A DNA stretch of 64,000 nucleotides from a phage, in the sequence record PZ019084.1; one strand, 5' to 3'. The notes below the pieces were generated by a model, which was not told the origin of the DNA, did no database searches, and was given only the letters and a program-made list of their open reading frames with translations. Position numbers and translations under genes: made by a program. Shown one piece after another: positions 1 to 47,317 of this stretch. Position 1 is the first letter of the stretch. Each line of letters starts with the position of its first letter.

Positions 1-134
1 GACCCGTAAGCGTCATAATAAGCTTTTTCTTCGTGTTCACGTACTACAATATGAGGTTCATAATCAGTCGGAAACATGTCAAGGGCAGAAACTGCCCCTA
101 CGCGTTGATAGCTTGGAATTACGAATTGAATCAT
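1..134 (-). CDS. 5' part of unidentified gene downstream of gene 42 (continues beyond window start)
   Basis: Open minus-strand frame from ATG at 134-132 to position 1 (MIQFVIPSYQRVGAVSALDMFPTDYEPHIVVREHEEKAYYDAYG...); ATG overlaps the gene 42 stop (ATGA). Does not resemble the T4 beta-gt N-terminus as I remember it. Confidence 0.45.
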   Translation of the reverse strand, partial: MIQFVIPSYQRVGAVSALDMFPTDYEPHIVVREHEEKAYYDAYG

Positions 135-871
135 TTCCACTCACCATTATAATCTTTTTTCGCAATATGAGTTTCGCCAGTTTTCCACCAATGGTCAACC
201 AAATAAAAATGACGGGAATACACATGAAGGCTCCCGACATTCCATATAATGGAACCTGCTTTATACTGACGAGTTGAATCACCTGCATTCAAATCAGATA
301 CTAATTTATCTAGTACGTATTTTTGCCATGCATAATCATTACGGAATCCGAAGACCACGTCATTTGAACGCATGCTTACTACTGCATTGACTTTCTTATC
401 ACGAATCAGGTACTGTACTGTATTCGTACACATGAAATCTGACATACCATCTTTATTGTAGTCAAACTGCATGGATGGACGAGTATAAATCATGATACCA
501 CGTCGAGAATCAGGATTTTGACCAAGTTCAGCTAAACACATATCATACTGGGCATAGTTATCTTCTGACCAAATAGCCCAACCATAATTCGAGTTAATTT
601 CGCCTTTAGAAGATGCTACCTGTTGCCAAATCTTCGGTGTTTCACCCGGAATATCTTTAACAAACAAACTTTTAGATTTATACCATTCAAGTTCACGCTG
701 AATGTATTCATCATTAAGAGCGCCAAAAATAAAAGGTTCATCTGCTACAAATGATGCACCAATAATTTCAATAGTTTTAACCCCGGTTTTATCAATTACG
801 AAATCTTTTTCCTTTAATGCAAGACCCAAATCAAGACGGATTTCTTCAACTGTCATATAATCGTTAATCAT
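131..871 (-). CDS. 42: dCMP hydroxymethylase
   Basis: 246 aa ORF matching T4 gp42 in length and sequence as remembered; position upstream of imm and 43. Confidence 0.95.
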   Translation of the reverse strand: MINDYMTVEEIRLDLGLALKEKDFVIDKTGVKTIEIIGASFVADEPFIFGALNDEYIQRELEWYKSKSLFVKDIPGETPKIWQQVASSKGEINSNYGWAIWSEDNYAQYDMCLAELGQNPDSRRGIMIYTRPSMQFDYNKDGMSDFMCTNTVQYLIRDKKVNAVVSMRSNDVVFGFRNDYAWQKYVLDKLVSDLNAGDSTRQYKAGSIIWNVGSLHVYSRHFYLVDHWWKTGETHIAKKDYNGEWK

Positions 872-1024
872 TTAAACCTCAATTGATGCATTCATATTTA
901 ATTTGTAACAGTAATAAACTCCAACCTATAATAAGTGGCGGAATCATAAGAGGAACTGTTACGCTATAGTATATACTTATTATAATCATCAAGATTAAAA
1001 GCAATACTGCTAAAATTTTGCTTT

Positions 1025-1276
1025 TCATTCCTTCTCTCTGATGATAATTACTTGATTTTGCTGTACAGATTTTTTAGTTTCACCCGCAATTGACCAAATA
1101 AATGTAATAAACCAACCAATGATTGACCAGTTAAACAGTAAAGATGTGAAAAAGATTCCTACTGTCGATTTTGACCCACGCATCAAGGCGATGAACCACG
1201 GAAGCATGTATATAATAATAGCCAACACGCCTGAAACTAAAACCATAAAAATTGAACCTGCTACTAAAGTTTCCAT
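1025..1276 (-). CDS. imm: superinfection immunity membrane protein Imm
   Basis: 83 aa, two hydrophobic segments, position between 42 and 43 as in T4. Confidence 0.75.
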   Translation of the reverse strand: METLVAGSIFMVLVSGVLAIIIYMLPWFIALMRGSKSTVGIFFTSLLFNWSIIGWFITFIWSIAGETKKSVQQNQVIIIREKE

Positions 1277-1283
1277 GTTTTCC

Positions 1284-1664
1284 TCACTTAGTCAAATTTT
1301 TTACGCATGAATTGTAAGAATTTACTACATACTCCATCGGAGCATTTTTACCAGTACGCCATTGGTAATTATTAGCCCAATTAGCCCAAAGTTCAGCACA
1401 GTAGTTTTCAATTTTTTCTTCGCGTGTAATTACATCCGAATTACGATATGCTTGAGCAGATTCGTCTGGACGAATAGCTTCGTCAAAATTCGCCTGCATT
1501 TGTTCTACTGTCTGTTTTGGAGCTTCTTTATAACACTTGACGTTAGGATTATAAAATTTGCTTGAACAGTTTACAATTTTTCCTACATCAGACTGATTTA
1601 CTACTGGTCCTTGAGCTACACAACCAGTAAGACCTAATGCAATAACCAAAATAGCGATTTTCAT
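1284..1664 (-). CDS. predicted lipoprotein (126 aa)
   Basis: N-terminal signal with lipobox (LGLTGC); Cys-containing secreted-type sequence. Confidence 0.6.
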   Translation of the reverse strand: MKIAILVIALGLTGCVAQGPVVNQSDVGKIVNCSSKFYNPNVKCYKEAPKQTVEQMQANFDEAIRPDESAQAYRNSDVITREEKIENYCAELWANWANNYQWRTGKNAPMEYVVNSYNSCVKNLTK

Positions 1665-1676
1665 AACAATTTCCTC

Positions 1677-1928
1677 TTAAAACTTAACAAATAATTTTAA
1701 AGCATCTTCAGTTTTAATTCCTTTTCTTACACCCATAACAGAAATTGGCTGTGACTGAAATTTTCCTTTGCCATTATAAATTTCTAACCCAGTCACCATT
1801 CCATTTTGTTCTATAATACCATAAGTATTACCTTCATTTTCGAATTCTTTAACTTTAAAGAGTTTATTAGCTTTTTCTGCATTAACAACTTTTAAATTTT
1901 GAATAAAATTAGTTTGAATGTTTTTCAT
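1677..1928 (-). CDS. hypothetical protein (83 aa)
   Basis: ORF trimmed to ATG at 1928, preceded by GGAGGA RBS and an early promoter; the longer track ORF runs through the promoter. Confidence 0.55.
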   Translation of the reverse strand: MKNIQTNFIQNLKVVNAEKANKLFKVKEFENEGNTYGIIEQNGMVTGLEIYNGKGKFQSQPISVMGVRKGIKTEDALKLFVKF

Positions 1929-1945
1929 TTTGTGTTCCTCCGTAG

Positions 1946-1990
1946 TTGATAGTTGTATAGTACCACGGAGGAACAGTCTTGTAAACAGTT
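1946..1990 (-). promoter_or_regulatory. T4-type early promoter (GTTTAC -35, TATA-like -10)
   Basis: Minus-strand GTTTAC at 1986-1981 with AT-rich upstream tract and conserved core TGGTACTATACAACTATCAACT. Confidence 0.6.
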
Positions 1991-2074
1991 TTGTGAAAAA
2001 ATTTTTAATGAATTTACAGGACCTAGAATCATCTATTTTTCTTAAGTATAGATTTATATTACTTGTATGAAAAA

Positions 2075-2090
2075 GGGACCCGGAGGTCCC
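2075..2090 (-). terminator. stable stem-loop downstream of gene 43
   Basis: gggacc-cgga-ggtccc perfect 6-bp GC stem with tetraloop. Confidence 0.5.
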
Positions 2091-2103
2091 TAGATTTATT
2101 CTA

Positions 2104-4800
2104 TCAGCCAAACAGGAAGTCTAACGAAGCTTTTTCTTCATAGTCCATACCCGCCGATTCACACATACCCGCAAGAGGTTTAACAAACGATTTTTGGAAC
2201 AAAGTTGAGTAGTCAATCCAAGACAGTACATCAGAACGAATTTCTTTTGGAAGTTCTGTGCCTGATGGCCAAGCAATGCACTTGTCACCAAATGGATTTC
2301 CTTCACGTAATGGAAGAACCATTACCTTATTTCCATCCAAAATTGGAGCTACACCTAAACCGCTAACAGCTCGACGATAAGTTAGCACACCACGAATATG
2401 GAACGGGCATTTAAATCCTGGCCAACCTTTATCGTCATATTTCGCTATATCGTTCGCAGTTTTTACTTCAGCAATAACTTTATAGTCAAGTTGACGATAT
2501 TCTTTCTCAAAGTTCTTGTAGTATTCTTGGACAGACTCTTCGCCTTCCTGAAGAATACGACGAATACTTTCTTCGAGAGCTTCTTGTACTGCTTTTGGCG
2601 TTGAACTCTGCTGAGTTTCCATACCCATGATTTTTAGATGCGGTTCAGCAAATCGCTTATCTTCCATATCATAAACGTTCAGAGCATAACGTTTTTTCGC
2701 TTTCCAAAATCCACCGACACCCTTTGAACCAAGCGGAGGGCAAGAAATAGCTTCACGGTCCATATGCATCAGATGCTCGCGGTTATTCATATAATCACAT
2801 AACTCACGATATGCAACATCAATCATAGGTTCCATCTTTTTCTTACCAAACTGATTCATGAATTCAACTAAATCATTTTGTTCTTTAAAGCGATCAAGAC
2901 CTACTTTTTCAATTACTTTATCTACACAAACATATACCGAATCAGTATCACCTGCTGCGATGAAATCTTCACCATTAGTTCCACATACTTTATTCAGATA
3001 TTCATTAATTTTGCGAGCAATCCACTGAATACCGACTTGACCGAAAATTGTGATAGCAGTAGCATTTCGCAAATCATAGTAACGGAAATGAATATTACCA
3101 AGAGCACCATAAAGACTGTTAATAAGAATTTTACGGTTCAGCTGATTTGTGTTAGCAAGTGTAGCAGCTTTTTCACATTCTTCAATCAGACTATTAAGAA
3201 CAGATTCAGTGTAATTCGACAATTCGTTTAAGAAATCATCACTGAACTTAACATATCGTTCAACTTCTGGTTTAGTTGGGCAAGACCCTGCACCTTTCAT
3301 AATAATCTTTTTAATAGCTTCGGCATTCATTTCTTCAGCGAACATTTTCTTTTTCCAATCTTTACGCTGGAAAAATACTTTAGCGATTTCCTTTGGAATG
3401 ATACCTTCTTGGTGCTTATCATACATCCATCCATTCGGAGAACAAGAATATTCATCACTTGGCTTAGGAGCTGTTCCTGCGATATATTCATGAATTGGAT
3501 GAACTTTAAACTGCCCGCGAATAGTCTCAGGACTAATGTTAACCTGACGAATAATGCTAGGATACAGAGACGTCAAGTCAAAACTCATAATGTATCGACG
3601 AGCAATCGGTTTAGGTTCAAACACAAATGCACCTGGAAAACTCTGTTTAACGTGCGAACCTTGTTGAGGAATAACCTTATGTTCACTTTTAAGTGAGTTA
3701 AAAATAATAGCATCCCAAGTTTTAATAGGACTCATTACACCAGAAAAAGGCATTTTAGCATAATAAGACATACTTAAAACTAGATCGATAAACCCACGAA
3801 TTTTATCAATTGCTTGAACTGATTCTACGTCAATGATGTTATAACTAATGTATCGTTGATGATTAGTCTCACGAAGTTTATTAATAGGACCATCGTACGG
3901 CAATTTACCTTTTTTGGTTTCATGCTGAGCAACTGATTCCAAAGAGAATGATGGCAAATTAGTAAATGCGAATTTCTTGTACAAATCTAAATAATCAAGA
4001 ATAGATACGCCATCAATCGAATAAATTTCTTTGCTACCGTACATATTTTGAATTAGTTTAGATTTTACTCGACCGATTGGAGAGAAGCGTTTCATACTGC
4101 GTTCACCGAGAACCATTTTAACACGATTCATGATATACGGAACGTCAAATCCCTCAATATTCCAACCGGTAAAAATAGCAGGTCGTTTCTGTTCCCAGAG
4201 ATTAATATATTCCATGAGCATATCACGCTCATTATCAAATGGCATATAAATTACTCGGTCAAGAATTTCTTGAGGAACTTCATCACCACCTTCACAGTCA
4301 AGCTTAGCAGCTAACTTTGCGTCCCATTTTGATACTGAACCGTACATTGAATTCAACAAATCAAAGACGTAAAAACGATCATCAATTGAATCATAATGAG
4401 TGATAGCATCAATTTCATATTCTGCTTTCATTGGGTCAGGAAATTTATCACCAGTAACCTCAATGTCACAGTTAGCTACACGAACAAATTTTCGGTCATA
4501 AACAATTTCTGAACCATATGTATCACTGATATAAGCGAGTTTAAAATCGTTCATACCGAGAGCTTCGAGACCGATGTCTTCCATTCGCTTCATCCAGTCT
4601 CGTGCATCTTTCATTGATGGAAATTTTTGAGGAGCACAGTTTTTACCATAAATGTCTTTGTATTTTGACTCTTCCTTACAATGTCTAAACATAGTCGGAA
4701 GATATTCTACTTCACGAGTACGTTCCTTTCCATTTTCATCAATATAACGCTCAACAATGTTATTTCCGACTGTTTCGATAGAGATATAAAATTCTTTCAT
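2104..4800 (-). CDS. 43: DNA polymerase (family B) with 3'-5' exonuclease
   Basis: 898 aa; exonuclease and polymerase motifs (e.g. AAGDTDSVYV); T4 gp43 length. Confidence 0.97.
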   Translation of the reverse strand: MKEFYISIETVGNNIVERYIDENGKERTREVEYLPTMFRHCKEESKYKDIYGKNCAPQKFPSMKDARDWMKRMEDIGLEALGMNDFKLAYISDTYGSEIVYDRKFVRVANCDIEVTGDKFPDPMKAEYEIDAITHYDSIDDRFYVFDLLNSMYGSVSKWDAKLAAKLDCEGGDEVPQEILDRVIYMPFDNERDMLMEYINLWEQKRPAIFTGWNIEGFDVPYIMNRVKMVLGERSMKRFSPIGRVKSKLIQNMYGSKEIYSIDGVSILDYLDLYKKFAFTNLPSFSLESVAQHETKKGKLPYDGPINKLRETNHQRYISYNIIDVESVQAIDKIRGFIDLVLSMSYYAKMPFSGVMSPIKTWDAIIFNSLKSEHKVIPQQGSHVKQSFPGAFVFEPKPIARRYIMSFDLTSLYPSIIRQVNISPETIRGQFKVHPIHEYIAGTAPKPSDEYSCSPNGWMYDKHQEGIIPKEIAKVFFQRKDWKKKMFAEEMNAEAIKKIIMKGAGSCPTKPEVERYVKFSDDFLNELSNYTESVLNSLIEECEKAATLANTNQLNRKILINSLYGALGNIHFRYYDLRNATAITIFGQVGIQWIARKINEYLNKVCGTNGEDFIAAGDTDSVYVCVDKVIEKVGLDRFKEQNDLVEFMNQFGKKKMEPMIDVAYRELCDYMNNREHLMHMDREAISCPPLGSKGVGGFWKAKKRYALNVYDMEDKRFAEPHLKIMGMETQQSSTPKAVQEALEESIRRILQEGEESVQEYYKNFEKEYRQLDYKVIAEVKTANDIAKYDDKGWPGFKCPFHIRGVLTYRRAVSGLGVAPILDGNKVMVLPLREGNPFGDKCIAWPSGTELPKEIRSDVLSWIDYSTLFQKSFVKPLAGMCESAGMDYEEKASLDFLFG

Positions 4801-4878: not shown

Positions 4879-5247
4879 TTAATTACCAATCGTATATTTA
4901 GGAACGAGTTTCCATTCGTGTTTTTGTTTAAAAGAAATAACTCGGAAGTTATTGGTTAAATCTTTCATAAAAGTTCTTTGACCAGGAACGATTTCAATCA
5001 GTCCCCAATCTTCTAACAGCCACGCAATCGAATCACGGCGAACTTCATCTTCTTCTGTCATTTCAACCTGACGGCCATCCATACGAAGCATTTCTTTAAA
5101 ATGAACGATATAGTATAGTCCTTTTTTCTGAAGAATGTGGCAGGACTGATACAGAACTTTATCTTTATTATTAGCAATTCCCATACGAGTCAAAGTTTCT
5201 TTTACTTTCAGAAAATCTTCAGGTTTTTTAAGAGTAATTTCAATCAT
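4879..5247 (-). CDS. regA: translational repressor RegA
   Basis: 122 aa, matches T4 RegA in length and sequence as remembered. Confidence 0.95.
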   Translation of the reverse strand: MIEITLKKPEDFLKVKETLTRMGIANNKDKVLYQSCHILQKKGLYYIVHFKEMLRMDGRQVEMTEEDEVRRDSIAWLLEDWGLIEIVPGQRTFMKDLTNNFRVISFKQKHEWKLVPKYTIGN

Positions 5248-12227: not shown

Positions 12228-12246
12228 AAAGGGCCGAAGCCCTTTA
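12228..12246 (-). terminator. CUUCGG tetraloop hairpin
   Basis: aaagggc-cgaa-gcccttt overlapping the alpha-gt stop codon. Confidence 0.5.
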
Positions 12247-13446
12247 TTTTGTAATAATGTCAAACTGTTCTTTAAAGCAGAAGCTTGAATCTTGATGCTG
12301 ATACAAAAATTCATAAGCTTTTTCGCGTTCACGGTCATAAAGAGCTCGGTCAGATGACAGTTCTTTAATACGCTCAAATGTTGATTCCATGTCATTTTCA
12401 TCAAACCAAACGATACCGCTATCATGAGAAATTAACGGAGTATTATCAACACGGAATTTTAAATTTTCGCCAGTAGATTTCCAAAATACTGGAATTGTTC
12501 CACATGCACCAAGCTCGAGATGAGTATATTCTAAAGAACGTTGTAGATATTTTTTGTCCAACTTACTCAGCTGATAACCAAATCCAGATTTACTCATGCG
12601 TTCAAGCATTTCGCTATTTACATAACGGTCAAGAATTTGCGTTGGCAAATTAGGAGCAATTTTAATTTGGTCTACTTGATGAAGACGATAATACTCGTAT
12701 GGAATTCCTTTTTCTTTAATAGGAATGAACGCTGGAGAACGTTCCAGACCTTCCATAATAGTACTTAACCCTGCAGGTTTAAGATGTTTTTCGTGAAAAT
12801 CAAACATCTGATAAAAACCTTTCCATGTAGTAGTACGACCAATCCAACGGTTGATATTCATGTTAATTTCAGAAACATCTTTCCAGTAAGTTGATCGAAC
12901 CTTCGCAATATCCATAGGAGGCTGAAAGTTGTATACAGTCGGTGCTTCTTCAATATCATCAAACAGTGAAACAGTTTCTGGATACCATTCTTTCATCAGA
13001 ACTTTATTAAAATCACCATTATCAGAATGACTAAAAATAACATCAGCTCGGCGAACAGTTTCTTCTAATCCCAAATTTCGACGCAAAGAAAGAGAAGAAT
13101 GGTCATGTTGATAAACTACAACACGAACCGAAGGTTTAATGTTATCAATAATTTTTTTATAGTTATTAATAGTGTCTTCTTCGACTGAAGTAGCAGGAAC
13201 TGAATTGATAACTAGAATATCACAATCATTTACCAGCTTAAGCGTTTTATCGTATTCTTTTGCCAATAAAACCGGAATTGAAAATGATTTATAATCATGC
13301 GCGCAATTACGTGTAAATGATTTATCTTTAGCATAAACCAAAGTTACTTCATGACCATTTTTAATAAACCAATCACGCTGCTCAAGAGAAAATTTAGTTA
13401 CGCCACAACCTTCAAGACCTCGAGCCATAAAAATGCATACTTTCAT
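12244..13446 (-). CDS. a-gt: alpha-glucosyltransferase for hydroxymethylcytosine DNA
   Basis: 400 aa glycosyltransferase, T4 alpha-gt length and position downstream of 55. Confidence 0.88.
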   Translation of the reverse strand: MKVCIFMARGLEGCGVTKFSLEQRDWFIKNGHEVTLVYAKDKSFTRNCAHDYKSFSIPVLLAKEYDKTLKLVNDCDILVINSVPATSVEEDTINNYKKIIDNIKPSVRVVVYQHDHSSLSLRRNLGLEETVRRADVIFSHSDNGDFNKVLMKEWYPETVSLFDDIEEAPTVYNFQPPMDIAKVRSTYWKDVSEINMNINRWIGRTTTWKGFYQMFDFHEKHLKPAGLSTIMEGLERSPAFIPIKEKGIPYEYYRLHQVDQIKIAPNLPTQILDRYVNSEMLERMSKSGFGYQLSKLDKKYLQRSLEYTHLELGACGTIPVFWKSTGENLKFRVDNTPLISHDSGIVWFDENDMESTFERIKELSSDRALYDREREKAYEFLYQHQDSSFCFKEQFDIITK

Positions 13447-46295: not shown

Positions 46296-46371
46296 TGGTC
46301 GAGGCAGTAGGGATCGAACCTACGACCTAGGACTTAGAAGGTCCTTGCTCTTCCTTCTGAGCTATGCCCCG
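46296..46371 (-). tRNA. tRNA-Arg: tRNA-Arg (anticodon UCU)
   Basis: Manual cloverleaf: acceptor CGGGGCA/TGCCTCG, anticodon loop CTTCTAA, T-loop TTCGATC, CCA encoded. Confidence 0.88.
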
Positions 46372-46375
46372 TAAT

Positions 46376-46451
46376 TGGGGTGACCGATGGGAGTCGAACC
46401 CATGACTACGAGAATCACAATCTCGAGTTCTACCAACTGAACTACGGCCAC
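46376..46451 (-). tRNA. tRNA-His: tRNA-His (anticodon GUG)
   Basis: Manual cloverleaf: acceptor GTGGCCG/CGGTCAC, anticodon loop TTGTGAT, CCA encoded; no encoded G-1. Confidence 0.8.
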
Positions 46452-46565
46452 ATTAATACCTACTCCAACAATCAAGATGTCTTCACACGAAATTAAGAGA
46501 AGAGTGATCAGTTCAACCCCTATAATCGCGTCAAGTAGATATTAATGTGACAGTTGTCACAAATT

Positions 46566-46640
46566 TGGCGGACGTGATAGGATTCGAACCTATAACCAAT
46601 CGCTTAACAGGCGATCGCTCTGCCATTGAGCTACACATCC
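46566..46640 (-). tRNA. tRNA-Asn: tRNA-Asn (anticodon GUU)
   Basis: Manual cloverleaf: acceptor GGATGTG/CACGTCC, anticodon loop CTGTTAA, T-loop TTCGAAT. Confidence 0.8.
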
Positions 46641-46644
46641 AAAT

Positions 46645-46731
46645 TGGTGGGGAGTGATGGAGTCGAACCACCCGAGTCGCAATGACAATGGATTTACAGT
46701 CCACACCGCTACCTCTACGGGATAACTCCCC
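46645..46731 (-). tRNA. tRNA-Tyr: tRNA-Tyr (anticodon GUA), long variable arm
   Basis: Acceptor GGGGAGT/ACTCCCC; anticodon arm GGACTGTAAATCC resembles E. coli tRNA-Tyr; 87 nt. Confidence 0.8.
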
Positions 46732-46744
46732 TTAATTCTTAATT

Positions 46745-46819
46745 TGGTGGCCCTGGGTGGAATTGAACCACCATCTGGCGATTATGAGTCGCTTGCTTGA
46801 ACCTTCCAGCTACAGGGCC
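46745..46819 (-). tRNA. tRNA-Ile: tRNA with anticodon CAU (Ile2/AUA-reading type, or Met)
   Basis: Acceptor GGCCCTG/CAGGGCC; anticodon arm GCGACTCATAATCGC as in E. coli tRNA-Ile2. Confidence 0.8.
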
Positions 46820-46820
46820 T

Positions 46821-46896
46821 TGGTGCTGATTGACGGAATCGAACCGCCGACCTTCTCATTACAAGTGAGTTGCTCTACCTACTGAGCTAAATCAGC
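46821..46896 (-). tRNA. tRNA-Thr: tRNA-Thr (anticodon UGU)
   Basis: Acceptor GCTGATT/AATCAGC; anticodon loop CTTGTAA. Confidence 0.85.
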
Positions 46897-46901
46897 AAAA
46901 C

Positions 46902-46991
46902 TGGCGGAGGCGATAGGATTTGAACCTATGAGTCGCCGGAGCGACTGCCGGTTTTCAAGACCGGTGCATTAAACCACTCTGCCACGCCTCC
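46902..46991 (-). tRNA. tRNA-Ser: tRNA-Ser (anticodon UGA), long variable arm
   Basis: Acceptor GGAGGCG/CGCCTCC; anticodon arm CCGGT-CTTGAAA-ACCGG; 90 nt. Confidence 0.85.
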
Positions 46992-46993
46992 AG

Positions 46994-47067
46994 TCTCCAT
47001 ACAAGGATTTGAACCTTGGACCTCCTGATCCCAAATCAGGCGCTCTACCAAACTGAGCTACACGGAG
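46994..47067 (-). tRNA. tRNA-Pro: tRNA-Pro (anticodon UGG)
   Basis: Anticodon arm CCTGA-TTTGGGA-TCAGG; CCA not encoded. Confidence 0.85.
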
Positions 47068-47077
47068 TAAATTAAAT

Positions 47078-47151
<74 letters not shown>

Positions 47152-47156
47152 AAATT

Positions 47157-47243
47157 TGGTGCGAGAAGTGGGACTCGAACCCACAAGGAAATCATTCCGC
47201 AGCATTTTAAGTGCTGTGCCTTTACCAATTTGACCATTCTCGC
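47157..47243 (-). tRNA. tRNA-Leu: tRNA-Leu (anticodon UAA), long variable arm
   Basis: Acceptor GCGAGAA/TTCTCGC; anticodon arm CAGCA-CTTAAAA-TGCTG; 87 nt. Confidence 0.85.
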
Positions 47244-47244
47244 G

Positions 47245-47317
47245 CTGGGAATAAAGGACTTGAACCTTTGCATCCTGGAATCAAAATCCAGTGCCTTACC
47301 AACTTGGCTAATTCCCA
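47245..47317 (-). tRNA. tRNA-Gln: tRNA-Gln (anticodon UUG)
   Basis: U1-A72 acceptor like E. coli tRNA-Gln; anticodon arm CTGGA-TTTTGAT-TCCAG. Confidence 0.85.

What the first reader, a model, noticed from the sequence alone, without database searches (positions are those of the whole stretch)
1..134. Unidentified gene in the slot where T4 has beta-glucosyltransferase
The gene translationally coupled to the 3' end of gene 42 starts MIQFVIPSYQRVGAVSALDMFPTDYEPHIVV..., which does not resemble the T4 beta-gt N-terminus I recall. The phage does carry alpha-gt (12244-13446), so the partner DNA-modification enzyme may differ (for example a T2/T6-type beta-alpha glucosyltransferase or something else).
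Basis: partly seen in the sequence, partly recalled or inferred. Interest (0 to 1): 0.45.

Follow-up and report, generated by a model that had tools for sequence, protein, structure and literature searches.

The report
T2/T6-type second-glucose DNA glucosyltransferase gene
The gene fragment at the window's edge is the start of the well-known T2/T6-type enzyme that adds a second glucose to already glucosylated phage DNA; most T4-like coliphages carry it in this slot, so the finding is ordinary.

Summary
On the minus strand an ORF starts at 134, overlaps the stop of gene 42 (ATGA) and runs off the window after 44 codons with the quoted sequence. It shows no similarity to T4 beta-gt. The alpha-gt at 12244-13446 is real.

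The gene is not unidentified. The 44 residues match exactly the N-terminus of a 280-aa protein annotated as beta-glucosyl-HMC-alpha-glucosyltransferase (ba-gt/ggt), which sits between gene 42 and uvsX in several hundred Tequatrovirus records. Phage T2 itself carries it, and the proxy differs from the T2 protein at 4 of 280 residues.

The full-length proxy passes Pfam's threshold for TAGT (PF20691). Its predicted structure is a GT-A fold with an invariant DDD motif, unrelated to the GT-B fold of T4 alpha- and beta-gt.

Published work shows that the enzyme adds a beta-1,6 glucose to alpha-glucosyl-hmC, making gentiobiosyl-hmC. A T6 ba-gt deletion is more sensitive to the Brig1 glycosylase. The pairing of alpha-gt with TAGT is the common state, and T4 is the exception.

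Only 16% of the gene lies in the window, so whether it is intact downstream is inferred from relatives.

Verdict: already known, low interest.

The parts
1..134 (-). First 44 codons (plus 2 nt) of ba-gt/ggt, the beta-glucosyl-HMC-alpha-glucosyltransferase (TAGT family). In the model they form the first beta-alpha-beta-alpha of the nucleotide-sugar-binding domain (strand 2-7 IQFVIP, helix 16-20, strand 28-32, helix 33-43). The remaining ~236 codons lie outside the window.
   Evidence: 134/134 nt identical to L007, whose gene encodes 280 aa; secondary structure.
131..871 (-). Gene 42, dCMP hydroxymethylase, which makes the hmC precursor. Its TGA stop overlaps the ba-gt ATG (ATGA). Homology with T4 ends at about 147-150, five codons before this stop, which marks the edge of the exchanged cassette.
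   Evidence: PF00303; alignment with T4.
12244..13446 (-). a-gt, DNA alpha-glucosyltransferase (GT-B). It makes alpha-glucosyl-hmC, the acceptor substrate of ba-gt.
   Evidence: ORF; PDB 1xv5/1y6f, E=7e-257, 400/400 residues aligned.

Best explanation
Window 1..134 (minus strand) is the 5' end of the T2/T6-type beta-alpha glucosyltransferase gene (ba-gt, also called ggt; 'beta-glucosyl-HMC-alpha-glucosyl-transferase'; Pfam TAGT, PF20691). The pathway runs as follows. gp42 makes hm-dCMP and hmC is incorporated during replication. The alpha-gt at 12244-13446 transfers glucose from UDP-glucose to hmC in alpha linkage. This enzyme then transfers a second glucose from UDP-glucose onto the 6-OH of that glucose in beta linkage, giving gentiobiosyl-hmC. 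The enzyme is a GT-A-fold, DXD-motif (D79-D80-D81) glycosyltransferase. It is therefore presumably dependent on a divalent metal and inverting, since UDP-alpha-Glc yields a beta linkage. It is unrelated to the GT-B enzymes alpha-gt and T4 beta-gt. The second glucose changes which host defences can attack the DNA, for example by giving partial protection from the alpha-glucosyl-hmC glycosylase Brig1. Basis of each step: identity of the fragment with the family, and the fold, are shown here. The chemistry and the Brig1 effect are shown in the literature for T2/T6. Intactness and activity of the gene in this particular phage, metal dependence, and D175 as a candidate catalytic base are inferred.
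Against: Only 44 of about 280 codons are in the window. The exact source genome was not retrieved; the best contig is 99.66% identical over 1,743 nt. An intact gene downstream is therefore inferred. Lesions in this gene do occur in deposited genomes: the two T6 records carry, respectively, an amber at codon 10 and a loss of one Asp of the DDD motif. The extent of gentiobiosylation varies widely between phages with near-identical enzymes, about 5% of cytidines in T2 against 72% in T6 (PMC13390438), so the degree of modification in this phage cannot be predicted. No biochemical test was done here. The structural model is of moderate quality, with residues 129-150 and 196-211 below pLDDT 50.
Confidence: 0.93

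Rival explanations
1. It is a divergent T4-type beta-glucosyltransferase (GT-B, GT63) that glucosylates bare hmC in beta linkage.
For: It occupies the same slot between gene 42 and uvsX as T4 b-gt.
Confidence: 0.01
2. It is a TAGT-family enzyme with a different specificity from the T2/T6 enzyme, for example another sugar donor, bare hmC or beta-glucosyl-hmC as acceptor, or a different linkage.
For: TAGT homologues accompany beta-gt rather than alpha-gt in other genera: Karamvirus myPSH1140 and Serratia phage Muldoon. PMC13216743 notes that TAGTs may fall into two kinds or may not discriminate by linkage.
Against: Those homologues are only 48-66% identical. The proxy here differs from the T2 enzyme at 4 of 280 residues, and its partner alpha-gt is present. 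Tequatrovirus phages with the same gene pair contain alpha-gentiobiosyl-hmC by LC-MS (PMC13390438).
Confidence: 0.03
3. The gene is a pseudogene, or is inactivated in this phage beyond the window edge, so the DNA carries only alpha-glucosyl-hmC and bare hmC.
For: The downstream 84% of the gene is unseen. Two deposited T6 genomes carry lesions in this gene.
Against: The visible 134 nt are intact and 100% identical to a contig with an intact 280-aa gene. By tblastn, 686 of 690 records cover at least 80% of the protein in one place. The amber at codon 10 is unique to one record among 474.
Confidence: 0.03

Closest known systems
Phage T2 / T6 beta-glucosyl-HMC-alpha-glucosyltransferase (ba-gt / ggt; Pfam PF20691 TAGT; PHROG 842)
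   Same: The N-terminal 44 aa differ from T2 at 1 residue and are identical to PP01. The full-length proxy differs from T2 at 4 of 280 residues. It sits in the same position between gene 42 and uvsX, has the same ATGA overlap with gene 42, and has the same partner alpha-gt.
   Different: Nothing of substance. The host phage is a different Tequatrovirus isolate, about 96-97% identical at DNA level to its best matches over 25 kb. Only the first 44 codons are visible.
T4 beta-glucosyltransferase (b-gt, GT-B fold, PDB 1JG7)
   Same: The same genomic slot downstream of gene 42. Both use UDP-glucose and form a beta linkage on T-even DNA (established knowledge; PMC13216743).
   Different: No sequence similarity. 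The fold is GT-B there and GT-A here. The acceptor is bare hmC for T4 b-gt and alpha-glucosyl-hmC for ba-gt. In T4 the gene is separated from gene 42 by 23 nt and is followed by segA.
GT2-like GT-A glycosyltransferases (e.g. TarP/TarS, SpsA, AvpGT, chondroitin and cellulose synthases)
   Different: No sequence-level relationship is detectable with a profile against all PDB sequences. The acceptor is a sugar on duplex DNA rather than a polysaccharide or lipid. The C-terminal half is poorly modelled.

Membership tests
T2/T6 beta-glucosyl-HMC-alpha-glucosyltransferase (ba-gt), Pfam TAGT PF20691 | Sequence match to the family model above the curated threshold | tested here: met
   The full-length proxy (PP01 protein, identical in the 44 window residues) scores 38.8 bits against the gathering cut-off of 27.5. 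PHROG 842 scores E=3.6e-89. The 44-aa window fragment alone hits PHROG 842 at E=2.6e-14 but is too short for Pfam (no hit).
T2/T6 beta-glucosyl-HMC-alpha-glucosyltransferase (ba-gt), Pfam TAGT PF20691 | Orthology with the enzyme of T2/T6 (near identity, same locus) | tested here: met
   43 of 44 window residues are identical to T2, and 42 of 44 to T6 record MH550421.1, one of the two T6 differences being that record's amber codon. The proxy differs from T2 at 4 of 280 residues. The order 42-[gene]-uvsX is the same in T2, T6 and PP01.
T2/T6 beta-glucosyl-HMC-alpha-glucosyltransferase (ba-gt), Pfam TAGT PF20691 | Full-length intact ORF of about 280 aa in this genome | not testable with these tools
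   The window ends after codon 44. The exact source contig was not found; the nearest is L007, 99.66% identical over 1,743 nt and 100% over the 134 nt.
T2/T6 beta-glucosyl-HMC-alpha-glucosyltransferase (ba-gt), Pfam TAGT PF20691 | Presence of the enzyme that makes its acceptor (alpha-gt) and of gp42 | tested here: met
   alpha-gt at 12244..13446, E=7e-257 to PDB 1xv5. gp42 at 131..871.
T2/T6 beta-glucosyl-HMC-alpha-glucosyltransferase (ba-gt), Pfam TAGT PF20691 | Catalytic activity: UDP-glucose plus alpha-glucosyl-hmC DNA gives beta-1,6-glucosyl-alpha-glucosyl-hmC (gentiobiosyl-hmC) | not testable with these tools
   Known for T2/T6 from the literature (PMC13216743 refs 17, 18, 21; PMC11078745 T6 delta-ba-gt; PMC13390438 LC-MS of relatives). 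Not measured for this phage.
GT-A fold glycosyltransferases | Single Rossmann-like alpha/beta/alpha nucleotide-sugar domain with a DXD motif | tested here: met
T4 beta-glucosyltransferase (GT-B) | Sequence or fold similarity to T4 b-gt | tested here: not met
   BLASTP best E=3.3. No b-gt-like sequence anywhere in the 64-kb window, tblastn best E=3.2. No GT-B structure among the top fold hits.

The most novel reading that the evidence does not exclude
The unseen 84% of the gene in this phage might differ from the T2/T6 enzyme, for example as a recombinant C-terminal acceptor-binding half with altered specificity, or as an inactivating lesion like those in the two deposited T6 genomes. The phage's DNA modification would then differ from the alpha-glucosyl/gentiobiosyl pattern expected. 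Nothing in the visible sequence suggests this.
Probability: 0.04. Interest if true: 0.3.

Novelty: already known. Interest (0 to 1): 0.06.

Why it matters
It matters little beyond correct annotation. Knowing that this phage pairs alpha-gt with ba-gt (TAGT) rather than with T4-type beta-gt predicts DNA carrying a mix of hmC, alpha-glucosyl-hmC and gentiobiosyl-hmC, and no beta-glucosyl-hmC. That bears on its sensitivity to modification-dependent defences (Brig1, GmrSD/BrxU-type type IV enzymes, McrBC) and on its use in phage therapy panels. The comparison also shows that T4 is the atypical member of its genus at this locus, so 'differs from T4' is not by itself a signal of novelty.

Tried and rejected
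1. Direct phmmer of the full-length proxy against PDB sequences gave only noise, E of 0.9 or worse. A 6-sequence profile against PDB sequences gave no hits at E up to 10. The fold therefore had to be tested by structure prediction.
2. Pfam on the 44-aa fragment alone gave no hit because it is too short.
3. I tried to recover the exact source genome by exact-match look-up of gp42. Four contigs encode the identical gp42 but none is DNA-identical to the window; the best, L007, is 99.66% identical. The literal 'extend the window' check could only be done by proxy.
4. The T4-type beta-gt hypothesis is rejected.
5. I asked whether the Met20 start annotated in T6 record MH550421.1 means the window's ATG at 134 is not the real start. 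It does not. That annotation follows from an amber at codon 10 unique to that record. The other T6 record, T2, PP01 and the more distant homologues all keep the MIQFVIPSY start, whose I2, Q3, I6 and P7 are invariant in alignment A3.
6. Three literature searches failed on syntax. The primary cloning paper for the T2/T6 genes, which from my own recollection is Winkler and Rueger, Nucleic Acids Res 1993, was not found in the searchable library and is not cited as evidence.

Full report
OBSERVATION. The window is read on its minus strand here. Gene 43 (DNA polymerase, 2104..4800), imm.1 (1284..1664), imm (1025..1276) and gene 42 (dCMP hydroxymethylase, 131..871) follow each other as in T-even phages. 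The stop codon of gene 42 overlaps an ATG at 134 (…GAG TGG AAA TGA TTC…, an ATGA overlap). The frame opened there reads MIQFVIPSYQRVGAVSALDMFPTDYEPHIVVREHEEKAYYDAYG for 44 codons until the window ends. The alpha-glucosyltransferase it cites at 12244..13446 is also real: 400 residues align end to end with the crystallised T4 enzyme (PDB 1xv5, E=7e-257). Translational coupling is a reasonable inference from the overlap and was not tested.

WHAT IT IS. A megablast of window 1-1300 found 505 phage records, nearly all Tequatrovirus, with the best at 98.2% identity. Those records annotate the gene under the match as 'beta-glucosyl-HMC-alpha-glucosyl-transferase'.

- In phage PP01 the gene is 843 nt (280 aa) and lies between gene 42 and uvsX. 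Its first 44 residues are identical to the window's.
- The same gene sits at the same place in phage T2 and T6.
- I tried to extend the window literally by looking up contigs that encode the identical gp42. Four were found and none is the source genome.
- One of them, L007, is 99.66% identical over 1,743 nt and 100% identical over the 134 nt of the finding. Its gene encodes a 280-aa protein differing at 1 residue from PP01's and at 4 from T2's.

The fragment is therefore the 5' end of the T2/T6-type beta-alpha glucosyltransferase gene (ba-gt, also called ggt).

The full-length proxy shows no similarity to T4 beta-gt (best BLASTP E=3.3), and T4 beta-gt finds nothing anywhere in the 64-kb window (best E=3.2). 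DNA homology between the window and T4 runs through gene 42 and stops at about window 147-150, five codons before the gene 42 stop. Beyond that point the two phages carry unrelated sequence. T4 has b-gt followed by segA in the slot, and this phage has ba-gt.

FAMILY AND FOLD.

- Pfam places the proxy in TAGT (TET-associated glycosyltransferase, PF20691) at 38.8 bits against a 27.5-bit cut-off, covering residues 3-207.
- PHROG 842, named for this enzyme, matches at E=3.6e-89, and the 44-aa fragment alone matches at 2.6e-14.
- No solved structure is detectable by sequence, either with the single protein or with a profile of six homologues.
- An alignment reaching down to a 22%-identical homologue from an unrelated 40-kb phage keeps M1, I2, Q3, I6 and P7, the GIAxxR motif at 58-63, D79-D80-D81, H126-G127, N152-T153, D175, G206-G207 and R212 invariant.
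- One database search gave 11 homologue clusters. The nearest, P0001, stands for 485 member sequences and has the same first 44 residues.
- An AlphaFold2 model built on nine of them has mean pLDDT 72.3 and pTM 0.74. The N-terminal 80 residues are confident, with block means of 79-94, while two loops (129-150 and 196-211) are poor.
- The window's 44 residues form the first strand-helix-strand-helix of the nucleotide-binding domain.

MECHANISM. Shown here: family membership, the GT-A fold, the invariant DDD motif, and the presence of gp42 and alpha-gt.

Shown in the literature for T2/T6 and close relatives:

- The enzyme adds a glucose to already alpha-glucosylated hmC, giving gentiobiosyl-hmC (PMC13216743, citing Lehman and Pratt 1960 and Kornberg et al.).
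- Tequatrovirus phages that encode alpha-gt plus TAGT and lack beta-gt contain hmdC, alpha-glucosyl-hmdC and alpha-gentiobiosyl-hmdC by LC-MS. The paper's modification groups include NR1 and QOTSP, which are among my closest hits (PMC13390438).
- Deleting ba-gt from T6 makes it more sensitive to the Brig1 glycosylase, which excises alpha-glucosyl-hmC (PMC11078745).

Inferred:

- The enzyme is metal-dependent through the DXD motif.
- It is inverting, because UDP-alpha-glucose gives a beta linkage.
- D175, invariant and about 95 residues after the DXD as in GT2 enzymes, may be the catalytic base.
- The gene is intact and active in this phage.

CAVEATS. Only 16% of the gene is visible, so intactness downstream rests on relatives. 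The proportion of hmC that ends up gentiobiosylated differs greatly between phages with near-identical enzymes, about 5% of cytidines in T2 against 72% in T6 (PMC13390438), and cannot be predicted here.

SIDE OBSERVATIONS.

1. The two deposited T6 genomes each carry a different lesion in this gene. MH550421.1 has TAG at codon 10, which explains its shortened 'ggt' annotation from Met20, and it is the only one of 474 matching records with that exact 101-nt stretch. AP018814.1 has Gln10 but has lost one Asp of the invariant DDD (WMIDDTTIR).
2. In Karamvirus myPSH1140 and Serratia phage Muldoon the TAGT homologue lies immediately upstream of a beta-gt homologue.
3. The window holds 11 tRNA genes at 46296-47317.
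4. A 49-aa hydrophobic ORF (879..1028, minus strand), overlapping the imm stop, is intact and 86-100% conserved in T4, T2, T6 and PP01, though their records do not annotate it.
5. Window 1676-1944, between imm.1 and gene 43, does not align with PP01, T4, T6 or L005.

VERDICT. The feature is an already known, widely distributed gene cut by the window edge, and its interest is low.

Noticed in passing
L004 (T6 MH550421.1) 4951-4953 region, and L013 (T6 AP018814.1) 911-1750: The two deposited T6 genomes carry different lesions in ba-gt. MH550421.1 has an in-frame TAG at codon 10 (MIQFVIPSY*RVG), so it is annotated from Met20, and it is the only one of 474 matching records with that sequence. AP018814.1 has Gln10 but lacks one Asp of the invariant DDD motif (WMIDDTTIR, 279 aa). 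T6 is the phage reported to have the most gentiobiosyl-hmC, so these may be stock mutations or sequencing errors.
   Followed up: partly
L009 1501-3404 (Enterobacter phage myPSH1140) and L011 1492-3440 (Serratia phage Muldoon): In these genera a TAGT homologue (66% and 48% identical) lies directly upstream of a beta-gt homologue. There TAGT partners with beta-gt rather than alpha-gt, which implies a different acceptor or relaxed linkage specificity.
   Followed up: no
window 879-1028 (-): A 49-aa strongly hydrophobic ORF (MKSKILAVLLLILMIIISIYYSVTVPLMIPPLIIGWSLLLLQIKYECIN) lies between imm and gene 42, its ATG overlapping the imm stop. It is intact and 86-100% conserved in T4, T2, T6 and PP01 but is not annotated in those records. 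Some other records appear to call it a second 'immunity protein'.
   Followed up: partly
window 46296-47317 (-): A cluster of 11 tRNA genes: Arg-tct, His-gtg, Asn-gtt, Tyr-gta, Met/Ile-cat, Thr-tgt, Ser-tga, Pro-tgg, Gly-tcc, Leu-taa and Gln-ttg. From my own knowledge T4 has 8, so His, Asn and Tyr are extra relative to T4.
   Followed up: no
window 1676-1944 (between imm.1 and gene 43): This stretch does not align with PP01, T4, T6 or the OZ035756.1 contig, although both flanks do at 95-98%. It looks like a variable small-ORF slot. The ORF here (within 1677..2111, minus strand; probably starting at an internal ATG, MKNIQTNF...) was not characterised.
   Followed up: no
window 131-150 (-): The last five codons of gene 42 differ from T4 (window ...KKDYNGEWK*, T4 ...KKDYVGKYA*). 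The boundary of the ba-gt/b-gt cassette exchange therefore lies inside the 3' end of gene 42.
   Followed up: yes
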